64,000 nucleotides of DNA, from contig OZ024743.1 in assembly GCA_964016885.1 (NCBI GenBank), positions 265,608,001-265,672,000 of the forward strand, read 5' to 3'. Shown one piece after another: positions 1,706 to 58,678 of the stretch; the stretch's first letter is position 1, and every line of letters begins with the position of its first letter. The translations under genes and the position numbers were made by a program. The notes below the pieces were generated by a model. The model had not been told where the DNA came from, ran no database searches, and saw only the letters and a list, made by a program, of their open reading frames with translations. This stretch comes from Eledone cirrhosa. Its lineage: Eukaryota.

Positions 1706-2477
1706 GGATAAGTCAAAATGAATTTAATCTAAATCAAAATTATGGGTGTCATGCCAGAAAGGCATGCGCCATATTACCCGTAAAATAAGCTCCAAGATTC
1801 TAATGAATAGGTCCGAGCATTTTATAACAACTAGAAATTGATTAACATATAAATAAACATATGAAACAATCACAGGGGATAATGTTTACAAGTGTGTAAA
1901 CACACATAGCTAGGTACGTAACTAAATAAAGTTAACGAGAACTTCAAAAATAGATACCTTATAATATGAATAATTTTCCCTGTATATATTCCATTAAATA
2001 AATATATTTCACCAATTAATCCAATGGTAAACCACGGAGGCCGATACTTGGATTTTCATCAAGGAAGAAGACCAGCGATCTGTGTTTACGTATTAAGTTC
2101 AAATCAGCGACTGGCCAGTAACACGTGTTGTATCTACTAAAAATACACACATCATACCAGCTTCGTCCCAGTGGCGTGAATAGGGTTATCGACAACTAGA
2201 AACAGCAGTCAAGTCCTTCAGATCGCTGGACTTGTTCCTTGTTGAAAATCCAAGTGTCGGTCTCCGTGATTTACCATTCGATTAATTGGTGAAATATATT
2301 TCTTTAATGGAATATATACAGGGAACATTAATCATATGATAAGGTCACTATTTTTGAAGTTCTCGTTAACTTTAGTTAGTTACCTATCTGGCTATGTGTG
2401 CTTTCACACTTGTAAAAATTAACCCCTGTGATTGTTTCATATGTTTATTTATATGTTAATCAATTTCTAGTTGTTAT
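1706..2477. mobile_element. Fold-back element with ~255-bp inverted arms and a degenerate HHR-like core
   Basis: Arms ~1824-2082 and ~2219-2477 are reverse complements. The minus strand of the left arm reads ttccTTGATGAaaatccaa...ttggatt...GAAA. Flanked by (TA)n. Confidence 0.7.
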
Positions 2478-2519
2478 GTTATTAATTCTGGCAATATTAC
2501 ACATATATGACCCTCCCCA

Positions 2520-3148
2520 TATATATATATATATATATATATATATATATATATATATATATATATATATATATATATATATATATATATATATGAATAT
2601 ATATATATATATATATGAATATATATATATATATATATATATATATATATGAATATATATATATATATATATATGAATATATATATATATATATATATAT
2701 ATATATATATATATATATATATATATATATATATACATATATATACATATATATATATATATATATATATATATACATATATATATGTATATATATATAC
2801 ATATATATATATATATATATATACATATACATATATATATATATATATACATATACATATATATATATATATATATATATATATATATATATATATATAT
2901 ATATACATATACATATACGTATATATATATATATATACATACATATATATATATATATATATATATATATATATATATATATATATATATATATATATAT
3001 ATATATATATATATATATATATATACATATATATATATATACATATATATATATATATATACATATATATATATATATATATATATATATATATATATAT
3101 ATATATATATATATATATATATATATATATATATATATATATATATAT
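2520..3148. repeat. (TA)n microsatellite with TGAA/CA interruptions
   Basis: Seen directly. Source of the spurious YIYI ORFs. Confidence 0.97.
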
Positions 3149-3149
3149 G

Positions 3150-4447
3150 TAGGAGGTGAGTTTTATTGTAGTACAATAAAACAATGCAGATATCGGATAA
3201 GAAGCACTCTACAGTTTGTAGGACTGGAGTATAGATAATATAAGATCAAAAGATGGTTAAAGGAGTTCCATGTATTTTATTATGCGCATTTCCATAGGAC
3301 TTTTCACAAAGTATACAGTTAATATTCAATTCTTTATCAATTTAGAATCTTTTCTCAAAGGCACATATACATACACCTCTTTAAAATATACCCATCTTCC
3401 TACCTTACTTTAAAGGGCATTATACAATCTATAATACTTGTTTACTCATTACACTCTTTCTATCTTCACCTTGTAAAATCCTTCATAACATATACATTTG
3501 TTTTTTTTTGACGTTAGAATATTCATCCGCAATCATTATTATTTTTTCTCTCTATCATAAAACTTTTTAATCTCAATTTCATCCTTAATTTATTATTTTT
3601 TTCTCCCCATCAACGAACTCATTCTTAATACATATTAACTCTTTATTCGCATATATTATCAATTCCTTCAATATACAAACTTTAACTTCACATTATTTTT
3701 CTCGAATCCTTCTACACACAAACCTTAATAATTTTTCTCTTCGTTAATTTTGAAATTGCCACAATACTTATCAACATACACTTTTTTTGACGTTAGAATA
3801 TTCATCCACAATTATTATTTTTTCTCTCTATCTTCATACATAAATTCCCTTCGTTAATTTTCAAATTCCTTTAATTTATACATTATCTTCCAACGGTTCT
3901 CAACCTCTCTATGTAAAACAATATATCTTTTTCTCAGTTATAAAAACTATCTCTTTCTCTCTATCACCCATCTCTCCCTCTCCACCTTCACTCTCATCTC
4001 CTCCCCCTTTTTTCATCCTTTCCAACCCCCTCGCTTAATAAAATATTTTCTCCTCGCACATATCCTCCCTTCGTTAATTTTCAATTTCTTTTAATTTATA
4101 CATTATCTTCCAACGGTTTTCAACCTCTCTATGTAAAACAATATATCTCCTCTCAGTTATAAAAACTATCTCTTTCTCTCTATCACCCATCTCTCCCTCT
4201 CATCTCCTCCCCTTTTTCATCCCCCCCCTCTCTAAATAAAATATTTTTCCCAATATCACACATCAATCTAAAACCACTTTTCATATGTTGATTTAAAATT
4301 GCACTATCCACAAGTGTTTTTTAGCCTTCATATCATGTTCTCCTGTTTTATCTGATGAAAACACAAATATTATTGCATGATGATGTTTGTTTTTGAAATG
4401 CGCATAATAAAATACATGGAACTCCTTTAACCATCTTTTGATCTTAT
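3150..4447 (+). mobile_element. Non-coding PLE-like 3' region with HHR and an inverted terminal arm
   Basis: Inverted repeat 3240-3292 / 4395-4447. Internal direct repeats at ~3500/~3780 and ~3846-4030/~4065-4240. HHR at the 3' end. Flanked by (TA)n. Confidence 0.7.
4346..4412 (+). ncRNA. Type I hammerhead ribozyme
   Basis: ttttat-CTGATGA-aaacacaaata..tgtttgtttt-GAAA-TGCGCA (palindromic stem III)-TA-ataaaa. Stem I is ttttat/ataaaa. Confidence 0.8.
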
Positions 4448-6401
4448 ATTATATATATATATATATATATATATATATATATATATATATATATATATAT
4501 ATATATATATATATATATACATATATATATATATATATATACATATATATATATATACATATATATATATATACATATACATATATATATATACATATAT
4601 ATATATATACATATACATATATATATATACATATATATATATATATATATATATACATATATATATATATACATATATACATATATATATATATATATAT
4701 ATATATATATATATACATATATATATATATATAAATATATATATATATATACATATATATATATATACATATATATATATATATATATACATATATATAT
4801 ATATACATATATATATATACATATATATATATATATATATACATATATATACATATATATATATATATATACATATATATATATATACATATATATATAT
4901 ATATACATATATATATATATATATATATATATATATATACATATATATGAATATATATATATATATATATATATATATATATATATATATATATATATAC
5001 ATATATATATATATATATATATATATATATATATATATATATATATATATGTATATACATATATATATATATATATATATATACACATATATATATATAT
5101 ATATATTCATATATATATATATATATATACACATATATATATATATATATATTCATATATATATATATATATATATATATATTCATATATATATATATAT
5201 ATATATATATATATATATATATATATATATATATATATATATATATATTCATATATATATATATATATATATATATATATATATATATATATATATATAT
5301 ATATATATATATTCATATATATATATATATATATATATATATATATATATATATTCATATATATATATATATATATATATATATTCATATATATATATAT
5401 ATATATATATATATATTCATATATATATATATATATATATATATATATATATATATATATATATATATATTCATATATATATATATATATATATATATAT
5501 TCATATATATATATATATATATATATATATATATATATATTCATATATATATATATATATATATATATATATATATATATTCATATATATATATATATAT
5601 TCATATATATATATATATATATATATATATATATATATATATATATATTCATATATATATATATATATTCATATATATATATATATATATTCATATATAT
5701 ATATATTCATATATATATATATATATATATATATATATTCATATATATATATATATATATATATATATATTCATATATATATATATTCATATATATATAT
5801 ATATATATATATATATATATTTATTTATATATATATTCATATATATATATATATATATATATATATATATATATATATATATATATATATATATATATTT
5901 TCATATATATATATATTCATATATATATATATATATATATTCATATATATTCATATATATATATATATATATATATATATATATATTTTTTCATATATAT
6001 ATATATTCATATATATATATATATATATATTCATATATATTCATATATATATATATTCATATATATATATATATATATATACATATATATACATATATAT
6101 ATATATATATATTCATATATATTCATATATATATATATTCATATATATATATATATATATAAATATATATACGTATATATATATATATATATATATATAT
6201 ATATATATATATATATTCATATATATATATATATATTCATATATATATATATTCATATATATATATATATATATATATATATATATATATTCATATATAT
6301 ATATATATTCATATATATATATATATTCATATATATATATATATATATATATATATATATATATATATATATATACATATATATACATATATATATATAT
6401 A
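4448..6401. repeat. ~1.95-kb interrupted (TA)n array
   Basis: Seen directly. CA interruptions give way to TTCA interruptions. Confidence 0.97.
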
Positions 6402-57749: not shown

Positions 57750-58040
57750 CGGCGGACAACAGAGGCCACGTACCGTTCCTCTCTAACAGATAACTTTCCC
57801 CCTCGGAAAAACCCCCTGATGATCGATGCGAAATCCGAAATGTAGAGACAATTAAATCTCTCCCAAGGTAACTCTGTCTCGTGTTATTATTTTTATATTT
57901 TGCGCTCTTTCCTACGTTCCTCTACACACTATACATCTCATTCTACATTTCAACTTACATCTCTCTCTTCACCTCCGAATTCTGTTACCCGGATATTTAC
58001 ACATCTGCATTGTTGAGGCTTCCAAAACAACATAAAATGT
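57750..58040 (+). mobile_element. Solo pLTR related to the 10-13 kb PLE, with a canonical HHR core
   Basis: Homologous to 12641-12930. CTGATGA at 57816 and GAAA at 57837. Confidence 0.75.
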
Positions 58041-58059
58041 GTTAATATATATATATATA

Positions 58060-58360
58060 CATATACACAGCACAGCGCACAGCACCCCAAAACAAGATGA
58101 TGTACGACAGAGCAAATGAGAGCCATAAAATAAAACCCAGTCACTGAGGAGGTCACAGAATATATGGCGAAAGAGCTTTGGCAATATATATACAACTATC
58201 CGGTTATCGAACCAACCAACCAACCAATCGACATTTATAATACATTGAAGTGAAAATCAACAGGTGCGTGTGTTTTATTGGCAGCATGACACTCCCAAAG
58301 TGTAACAATATCTGTTTCAACACACGTTTTCAGATGAGAAACCTTGCAAAACAATGTCAT
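58060..58360 (+). mobile_element. pLTR-type repeat with HHR at 58140-58182
   Basis: gtca-CTGAGGA-ggtcacagaatatatggc-GAAA-gagc-TT-tggc. The 3' tail is shared with 50136-50330 and related to 37446-37530. Confidence 0.7.
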
Positions 58361-58520
58361 ATATATATATGCCTGTGTGTGACGTATATATGTATATATA
58401 TACTTCACAAACACATATATAAATATATATATAGTAATAATAATAAATTTGAAGACTAAAATCCAAAGAGGGCTCGATAAGGATAAATATATATCAAATA
58501 TATAAGAACCGTAGTGCAAA

Positions 58521-58678
58521 TATTTATTAAAATAACAGATTAAAGTTTAAGCAAAGTATCGCTGCTTTCACACTTAACGGGATGTTCTGAAACTATCTGG
58601 TTAGTTTCAGAAGATCCCGTTAAGGGTGAAAGCAGCGATTCTTTGCTTAAACTTTAATCTGTTATTTTAATAAATATA
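58521..58678. repeat. ~155-bp snap-back palindrome with an HHR-like remnant
   Basis: Arms 58521-58595 and 58602-58678. cAGAAGA-t-ccc-gttaa-ggg-t-GAAA starts right after the loop. Confidence 0.75.

What the first reader, a model, noticed from the sequence alone, without database searches (positions are those of the whole stretch)
1706..58678. Recurring hammerhead-bearing fold-back insertions from many unrelated families
Seen: about 14 insertions share one layout. They start near 1.8, 3.2, 9.0, 10.1, 23.6, 29.6, 34.8, 36.1, 37.1, 40.7, 41.6, 42.5-45.4 (nested), 50.0 and 58.5 kb. Each has two inverted copies of a non-coding segment, usually sits in or next to (TA)n, and carries a CUGANGA...GAAA core or a remnant. 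One arm usually extends further than the other. Two examples enclose PLE RT sequence. Established: PLE pseudo-LTRs carry minimal type I HHRs, and PLEs can have inverted 5' pLTRs. Inference: in this genome palindromic, mostly non-coding insertions are the dominant PLE product, or a class of non-autonomous ribozyme retroelements that could be mistaken for MITEs.
Basis: partly seen in the sequence, partly recalled or inferred. Interest (0 to 1): 0.85.

Follow-up and report, generated by a model that had tools for sequence, protein, structure and literature searches.

The report
Penelope fold-back insertions and ribozyme hitch-hikers
The palindromes are real: most are the cut-short, back-to-back ends of Penelope-like retrotransposons, a layout already described, but several belong to short non-coding repeat units that carry the same insertion marks and so likely borrow the Penelope enzyme to spread.

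Summary
All 14 listed sites hold inverted arms, and two more are nested at 43.5 and 44.2 kb. Genome copies vary in arm length and junction, point their 3' ends outward, carry a tail on one end only and end in (TA)n. This is the published Penelope-like element (PLE) layout, not a MITE.

Ten of the 16 insertions map to the 3' ends of RT + GIY-YIG elements (Hydra-type and Neptune-like motifs); 40.7 kb is a sister of one. They are likely non-autonomous, retrozyme-like PLE passengers.

Hammerheads are strongly enriched (28 in 600 kb against 2 and 0 shuffled), but the 1.8 kb family has none. Both arms of one insertion share the same subfamily variants (28 of 30, 10.5 expected), so fold-backs likely form anew at each insertion. 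Ends fall on short UA tracts of the template. Fold-backs are common but not shown to be dominant: 18 pairs against 49 single ends.

The parts
1706..2477 (-). Fold-back of a 571-574 nt non-coding monomer family; arms 1824-2082 and 2219-2477, tail 1706-1823; no hammerhead core recognised
3150..4441 (+). PLE 3' end: last codons of a GIY-YIG ORF, 3' UTR, hammerhead 4344-4414; short inverted arm 3246-3292 with tail 3150-3245
   Evidence: L167
9015..9145 (-). Very short fold-back of the 41.6 family, centred on the palindromic loop of helix III; tail about 9015-9091
10077..12979 (-). PLE with RT (11542-12669) and GIY-YIG (10712-11185) in split frames; arms 10077-10373 and 12641-12937; tail 12938-12979; degenerate hammerhead core
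23594..24893 (+). Fold-back of the 1.6-kb 3' UTR of a Hydra-type PLE; arms 23594-23983 and 24324-24714; tail about 180 nt; U4C hammerhead
29245..30290 (-). Partial tandem (period 506 here, 592-595 in two other loci) of a non-coding monomer with a U3-A8 hammerhead, plus inverted copy from 30036 carrying the tail
34645..35110 (+). Fold-back of a 485-486 nt non-coding monomer; hammerhead 34956-35043 with long helix II; arms 34772-34830 and 35047-35106; tail on the left
36078..36797 (-). Hydra-type PLE remnant: ORF N-terminal fragment 36272-36667 joined straight to the 3' end; arms 36150-36270 and 36668-36788; hammerhead 36174-36233; tail on the left
37093..37528 (-). 3' end of a Neptune-like PLE; 26-nt inverted arm 37446-37471 with tail to 37528; hammerhead core with weak helices I and III
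40742..41455 (+). Older fold-back, sister of the 23.6 family; degenerate U4C-type core; tail to 41455; coding partner not shown directly
41623..41832 (+). Short fold-back of a very abundant family (27,646 exact 30-mers); only the 3' half of a U3-A8 hammerhead; tail 41757-41832
42488..45452 (.). Fold-back of the 36.1 family (arms 42553-43014 and 45018-45450 including simple repeats; tail 42488-42552) with two nested fold-backs
43421..44045 (.). Nested fold-back; arms 43507-43648 and 43887-44028; near-canonical core with long helix II; partner unresolved
44060..44672 (-). Nested fold-back of a 516-528 nt non-coding monomer; hammerhead 44230-44308; arms 44184-44223 and 44628-44667; tail on the left
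49970..50330 (+). Fold-back of a Neptune-like PLE end; only the 3' half of the hammerhead; a complete single end of the family lies at 58090-58354
51467..52305 (+).
58432..58684 (-). Short fold-back of a Hydra-type PLE end; U4A hammerhead variant; tail 58432-58512
59415..59813 (-).

Best explanation
These are Penelope-like element (PLE) insertions with their 3' ends facing outward and a tail on one end, likely made when a PLE enzyme copies an RNA twice from a nicked (TA)n site; most are cut-short ends of coding PLEs, and six families are non-coding monomers likely mobilised in trans by the same enzymes. Shown: outward polarity, variable arms and junctions, two fixed end points per family, (TA)n flanks, RT + GIY-YIG upstream for 10 of 16 window insertions, head-to-tail monomers for 4, and matching subfamily variants in both arms. 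Inferred: a more-than-unit transcript is the template; the GIY-YIG domain nicks both strands of (TA)n; each 3' end anneals to a short UA tract at one of two internal start sites (giving the tailed and tail-less ends); both cDNAs stop early and are joined head to head. Hammerhead cleavage, circular RNA and the identity of the driving enzyme are untested.
For: Variable spans from about 0.2 to 5.5 kb with common outer ends in family 23.6. Endonuclease at a constant distance upstream: 1603-1643 nt in 8 places for 23.6, 311-426 nt in 9 loci for 50/58, 490-570 nt in 4 loci for 37.1, about 1130-1300 nt in 5 loci for 41.6, 988-1027 nt in 2 for 58.5. The tail reads on into the ORF start in 23.6 and 36/42. 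Hydra-type motifs (RW[K/R], DKT, CxCX5C) seen match PMC8557442 section 11, which also reports (TA)n insertion. Outward against inward pairs: 26 to 3 among the first 100 listed 41.6 matches; 21 to 4 among library-matching inverted pairs in the even sample. Arm haplotypes identical in 28 of 30 palindromes, 10.5 expected. Alternating A/T run at the end junction of at least 3 nt in 12 of 19 ends, mean 3.05 against a null of 0.93 and 10%. Monomers: 6 loci at 485-486 nt, longest ORF 78 aa or less, no PLE hit; 30 of 30 read-through tails of 34.8 continue into the monomer, none into an ORF.
Against: No coding partner or shared 3' end was found for any monomer family in about 1.7 Mb of loci, so mobilisation in trans rests on insertion marks alone. 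The 1.8 family has no hammerhead. Arm identity within an insertion (99.5%) did not clearly exceed that between insertions (99.3%) over the last 270 nt of family 23.6. One junction recurs exactly 80 times, and some copies contain that junction inside one arm, which hints at occasional re-mobilisation of palindromes. In vitro, an Anolis PLE started reverse transcription at a site not homologous to the cut DNA (PMC11167929), unlike the UA pairing inferred here. Five of 19 ends showed a run of 0 or 1 nt.
Confidence: 0.85

Rival explanations
1. Same PLE origin, but the second arm comes from a single cDNA snapping back on itself and copying its own 5' part.
For: Explains arm concordance (28 of 30). 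The 9.0 kb copy is centred on the palindromic helix III loop. 17 of 26 outward 41.6 pairs have 20 nt or less between the arms, inside the helix II region.
Against: Many copies have long, unequal arms with a single-copy stretch between them. The tail lies on either side of the same junction (6 of 30 on the left). Junction gaps are heterogeneous. A PLE extends both strands in vitro (PMC11167929).
Confidence: 0.3
2. The short palindromes are themselves non-autonomous families that spread as fixed palindromic masters.
For: 80 exact copies of one junction; nested copies that include that junction within an arm.
Against: 80 is 0.3% of 27,646 exact family 30-mers. The junction occurs with several subfamily haplotypes mirrored in both arms. 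Other junctions differ from copy to copy.
Confidence: 0.1
3. They are MITEs or fold-back DNA transposons with TA target duplications, and the hammerhead look is chance.
For: Inverted ends and TA flanks; a TA duplication cannot be excluded inside (TA)n.
Against: Arms vary in length, only one end has the tail, long copies encode RT + GIY-YIG, and hammerheads are 28 against 2 and 0 in shuffles with family-specific helix I pairing. No transposase-like ORF was seen inside any window element; no dedicated DDE search was run.
Confidence: 0.02
4. The monomers are satellite-like relics of deleted PLE ends that were amplified at the DNA level and are not retrotransposed.
For: No coding partner was found.
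Against: Copies are dispersed over many contigs as 1-3 unit partial tandems with variable 5' truncation, inverted 5' copies, tails and (TA)n ends.
Confidence: 0.08

Closest known systems
EN+ PLEs, Hydra and Neptune/Nematis-type clades (Craig et al. 2021, PMC8557442; passages and section 11 read)
   Same: 5' truncation, partial tandems, inverted 5'-truncated copy, tail at one end, (TA)n targeting, hammerhead in the pLTR, C-terminal GIY-YIG; Hydra motifs RWK/RWR, DKT and CxCX5C in the partners of 23.6, 36/42 and 58.5.
   Different: Tails here run from about 40 to 180 nt, not 30-40. Truncation is extreme: tens of long copies found against tens of thousands of ends in family 41.6. No tree was built, so clade names rest on motifs.
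Minimal PLE hammerheads (Cervera and de la Pena 2014, PMC4209133; parts 1-2 of 4 read)
   Same: Type I fold, short helix I, palindromic helix III, the U3-A8 variant, and pairs on opposite strands 100-700 bp apart.
   Different: Helix II is often 40-70 nt; U4C and U4A cores are fixed in whole families; one family has a 6-bp helix III.
Non-LTR retrozymes (PMC7229834, passages; bioRxiv 10.64898/2026.07.22.740005, parts 1 and 3 of 5 read)
   Same: Non-coding, AT-rich head-to-tail units with one type I hammerhead per unit; proposed to be non-autonomous PLE derivatives.
   Different: Units are 420-595 nt against about 300 nt; the ribozymes are PLE-type, not canonical; copies are dispersed short partial tandems with inverted copies and tails; two families lack a complete hammerhead; circular RNA is untested.
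Non-autonomous Chlamys elements such as MRC1 (PMC8557442, passage read)
   Same: Non-coding elements that form pLTRs and head-to-tail insertions.
   Different: Those generally share a 3' end with an autonomous family; none was found here.
MITEs and fold-back DNA transposons (definition recalled)
   Same: Short, non-coding, inverted ends, TA context.
   Different: No fixed TIR length, a one-sided tail, RT-EN interiors in long copies.

Membership tests
EN+ Penelope-like element | RT plus C-terminal GIY-YIG in full-length members | tested here: met
   Window 10.7-12.7 kb; L039, L047, L049 and L067 by translation and tblastn, with weak or no Pfam support
EN+ Penelope-like element | Inverted 5'-truncated copy, 3' ends outward | tested here: met
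   26 outward to 3 inward; 21 to 4
EN+ Penelope-like element | Tail at one end only | tested here: met
   Two end points per family, one tailed
EN+ Penelope-like element | Type I hammerhead in the terminal repeat | tested here: met
   Descriptor 28 against 2 and 0; family tables. Not met for family 1.8; weak for 10.1, 37.1 and 51.4; Rfam gave no hit
Hydra clade | RWK, DKT, CxCX5C linker, CxxC and CxH near the end, (TA)n insertion | tested here: met
   Motifs read by eye in partners of 23.6, 36/42, 58.5 and partly 3.2 against PMC8557442 section 11
Hydra clade | Placement in an RT phylogeny with reference Hydra elements | not testable with these tools
   No reference PLE set was on hand
Non-LTR retrozyme | Non-coding head-to-tail monomer with one type I hammerhead | tested here: met
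   Families 29.6, 31.1, 34.8 and 44.2; not met for 1.8, doubtful for 51.4
Non-LTR retrozyme | Canonical hammerhead and unit of about 300 nt | tested here: not met
   Units 420-595 nt, PLE-type ribozymes with long helix II; no Rfam hammerhead hit on L206
Non-LTR retrozyme | Self-cleavage and expression as circular RNA | not testable with these tools
   Needs bench work or raw RNA reads
MITE | Fixed-length terminal inverted repeats, uniform size | tested here: not met
MITE | Fixed target-site duplication | tested here: inconclusive
   Flanks are (TA)n: 32 of 42 and 36 of 38 ends of family 41.6 begin with three TA units (overlapping loci not removed)
MITE | DDE transposase partner sharing the ends | not tested
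   No DDE search was run; long copies carry RT-EN instead

The most novel reading that the evidence does not exclude
This genome holds at least six families of 420-595 nt non-coding RNAs that are the SINE equivalents of Penelope elements. They have no sequence-matched autonomous partner, are mobilised in trans, and bear the full PLE signature (inverted copy, one-sided tail, TA targeting), which would be direct genomic evidence that PLE enzymes move retrozyme-like RNAs, some without a ribozyme. The ends also suggest that Hydra- and Neptune-type PLEs prime by pairing nicked (TA)n with internal UA tracts, and the fold-backs would seed introns with very many near-perfect hairpins.
Probability: 0.5. 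Interest if true: 0.65.

Novelty: new variant of a known kind. Interest (0 to 1): 0.45.

Why it matters
How PLEs make their inverted and tailed insertions is still open (PMC8557442, PMC11167929), and the claim that animal retrozymes ride on PLEs rests so far on co-occurrence and trees (bioRxiv 10.64898/2026.07.22.740005). Here non-coding monomers carry the PLE insertion marks copy after copy. Families with tens of thousands of young copies also give a large natural sample of start sites and junctions, and so a testable priming rule. In practice these elements would be misfiled as MITEs, SINEs or unknown repeats. Intronic fold-backs would form tight double-stranded RNA, the kind of substrate tied to A-to-I hyper-editing (PMC5625713, passages read; Penelope is the most edited LINE-class repeat in lizard there). 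That link is untested here.

Tried and rejected
The repeat finder and the Rfam E-value scan of the raw window were swamped by (TA)n (only the best 150 of 286 rows were visible). Rfam found no hammerhead at gathering score or on two monomers. Minimum-energy folds gave the hammerhead-like shape or a significant z-score for only 2 of 6 motifs, so folding energy is no support. Arm identity within against between insertions was uninformative for family 23.6. I first read the 80 identical junctions as a palindromic master; the denominator and the mirrored haplotypes argue against it. A hammerhead-like string on the opposite strand of the 37.1/50.0 tails was rejected because helix I pairs poorly. The search for coding partners of the monomers was negative; single adjacencies (L305, L196) looked like neighbouring elements. 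Sequencing runs: no RNA holder listed. Contigs of three runs covered the 23.6 element only in short pieces and could not confirm the junction. Two look-ups in earlier findings returned nothing. Seven paper searches listed no paper describing monomers with PLE inversion and tail; Repbase and Dfam could not be searched, and no supplements were read.
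Full report
Setting. The window lies in a 3.0-Gb animal genome with 1796 contigs; the host group was not established. About 20% of the window is simple repeat, against 11% in an evenly spaced 600-kb sample. A CUB-domain stretch at 18.0-18.3 kb (PF00431) suggests that the elements lie in or near introns of a host gene; this is an inference.

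Observation. Masked self-BLAST gave local inverted arms at every listed position, at two nested elements and at three unlisted sites. The fold-back spans checked total about 14.8 kb of the 64 kb. Arms differ by a few percent up to about 20%, and carry family-specific tails found all over the genome, so they are not read artefacts; contigs of other runs could not confirm a junction. 10.1 kb contains RT and GIY-YIG, and 36.1 kb a PLE N-terminal fragment. A strict hammerhead descriptor gave 4 hits in the window (shuffle mean 0.07) and 28 in 600 kb (shuffles 2 and 0). By my reading, 12 of those 28 lie in outward-facing inverted pairs. Family tables show different helix I sequences that each pair correctly, and fixed core variants. 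Rfam found none, and the 1.8 kb family shows no core.

Not MITEs. In family 23.6, paired copies span about 0.2 to 5.5 kb, share their outer ends, and have a 180-nt tail on one side only. Long copies encode RT and GIY-YIG, and the tail runs on into the ORF start where the copy is tandem. The same holds for other families. The endonuclease lies at a constant distance upstream of the end in 50/58 (9 loci), 37.1 (4), 41.6 (5), 58.5 (2) and 36/42. In 3.2 the window copy begins in the last codons of the endonuclease. Thus 10 of 16 insertions are ends of coding PLEs, 40.7 is a sister of 23.6, and 43.5 is unresolved. The motifs RWK/RWR, DKT and CxCX5C fit the Hydra clade as described in PMC8557442 section 11; the 37.1 and 50/58 partners have a CX4CxxC linker as in Neptune or Nematis. 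No tree was built. The inverted copy, the one-sided tail and (TA)n targeting are described in PMC8557442, and opposite-strand hammerhead pairs 100-700 bp apart in PMC4209133.

Non-coding monomers. In four listed families and two unlisted ones, the tail runs back into the element's own 5' part. Unit lengths: 571-574 nt (1.8; periods in L329 and L333), 592-595 (29.6; 2 loci, 506 in the window), 420-433 (31.1/59.4; 2 loci), 485-486 (34.8; 6 loci), 516-528 (44.2; 2 loci) and 544 (51.4). The five units examined have no ORF over 80 aa and no PLE domain hit. For 34.8, a tail-end pattern had 314 exact matches, and all of the first 30 continue into the monomer, with none entering an ORF; 6 of the 30 have an inverted piece (my regular expression mislabelled 18 of them, the alignments and printed sequence show the continuation; L377 leaves the monomer after about 35 nt). 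First-look candidate counts were 2158, 2705 and 2425 for 1.8, 34.8 and 51.4. No coding element sharing their ends was found in about 1.7 Mb of loci, a small and biased part of the genome. They work like non-autonomous PLEs. They meet the tandem-plus-hammerhead part of the retrozyme definition but not its size or canonical ribozyme (PMC7229834).

How fold-backs form. One 30-mer of family 41.6 has 27,646 exact matches, while a query for the 270 nt upstream had 27 candidates (a lower bound). Among the first 100 listed matches there are 26 outward and 3 inward pairs; 17 outward pairs have gaps of 0-20 nt, of many different lengths. One junction recurs 80 times, 0.3% of the total. At four diagnostic sites both arms agree in 28 of 30 palindromes, 10.5 expected, so both arms likely come from one template at each insertion; several homogenised masters or gene conversion could also give this. 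At 19 of 20 ends tested (one had no read-through copy), the template shows an alternating A/T run at the junction of mean 3.05 nt, at least 3 nt in 12, against a null of 0.93 and 10% (copies from overlapping loci not removed). I infer priming by short pairing of nicked (TA)n with UA tracts at two internal start sites. PMC11167929 ties the tail to two start sites and shows extension of both strands, but reports no homology at the start site for its element. Two primed cDNAs joined head to head fit the unequal arms best; snap-back is not excluded.

How common. Using 18 end anchors from this window's families, the even sample gave 18 outward pairs and 49 single ends; 12 pairs span 700 nt or less, and 3 have PLE coding hits inside. 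Partners shorter than 25 nt or beyond a 10-kb edge are missed. Of 112 local inverted pairs in that sample, 25 match the window's families (21 outward, 4 inward), and 19 of these have a TA-rich flank against 33 of the other 87; many of the rest look like chance pairs of abundant interspersed repeats, and some like other PLE families. Fold-backs are thus frequent and mostly non-coding, but not shown to be the majority product.

Verdict. The layout is known PLE biology. The additions are the monomer families with full PLE insertion marks, the UA-tract rule at the ends, and the evidence that arms are made anew. Papers were seen as follows: PMC8557442 passages and section 11; PMC11167929 and PMC4209133 parts 1-2 of 4; bioRxiv 10.64898/2026.07.22.740005 parts 1 and 3 of 5; PMC7229834, PMC8969392, PMC13282606 and PMC5625713 passages only. 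No supplements were read; those of PMC8557442 and repeat databases may already list these families. Hammerhead numbering and the MITE definition are recalled.

Noticed in passing
window 41968-42080: A 113-nt palindrome (82% arm identity) after (TA)n with no relative in 1.5 Mb of loci and no hammerhead seen; origin unresolved.
   Followed up: partly
window 25560-28215 (+): A further 5'-truncated PLE with stop codons: GIY-YIG region with CX4CxxC linker, long pyrimidine-rich 3' UTR and hammerhead core at 28098; its last 220 nt are duplicated at 28581-28797 together with a tail piece of the 31.1 family.
   Followed up: partly
window 50988-51145 and 57770-58040 (+): Single PLE ends with hammerhead cores; 57.8 kb is a 72% relative of the 10.1 family and keeps the canonical core that the 10.1 subfamily has lost.
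   Followed up: partly
window 44493-44627: The interior of the 44.2 fold-back contains pieces copied from the neighbouring 43.5 element, suggesting template switching onto adjacent DNA; L377 similarly switches from the 34.8 monomer into 31.1-like sequence.
   Followed up: no
window 36240-36330: The join of the ORF fragment to the 3' end was found only in this copy among the loci held, so it is probably a private deletion or template jump.
   Followed up: yes
window 52180-52250; L339-L358: Family 51.4 conserves the first core box followed after one base by GAAA, with no helix II; it may be a minimal or dead ribozyme.
   Followed up: partly
window 42758-43080, 28830-29131; L051-L080: Two families carry microsatellite-like sequence as part of the element itself, so they spread simple repeats as well as targeting them.
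   Followed up: partly
window 6400-8819 (+); 19.4-22.1, 37.5-38.4, 39.5-40.5 kb: Non-PLE LINE fragments; the first has a 624-aa RT frame (PF00078, E 1.8e-30).
   Followed up: no
window 16307-16494, 17256-18014, 47878-48276, 59981-60163: An abundant interspersed SINE-like repeat in both orientations; it produces many chance inverted pairs in the genome sample.
   Followed up: no
window 60636-63197: Local tandem duplication with 80-nt and 37-nt minisatellites.
   Followed up: no
monomers 1.8, 29.6, 34.8, 44.2: By eye, all four have similar short motifs just after the tail end, one TATA-box-like; a possible shared promoter, not tested.
   Followed up: no
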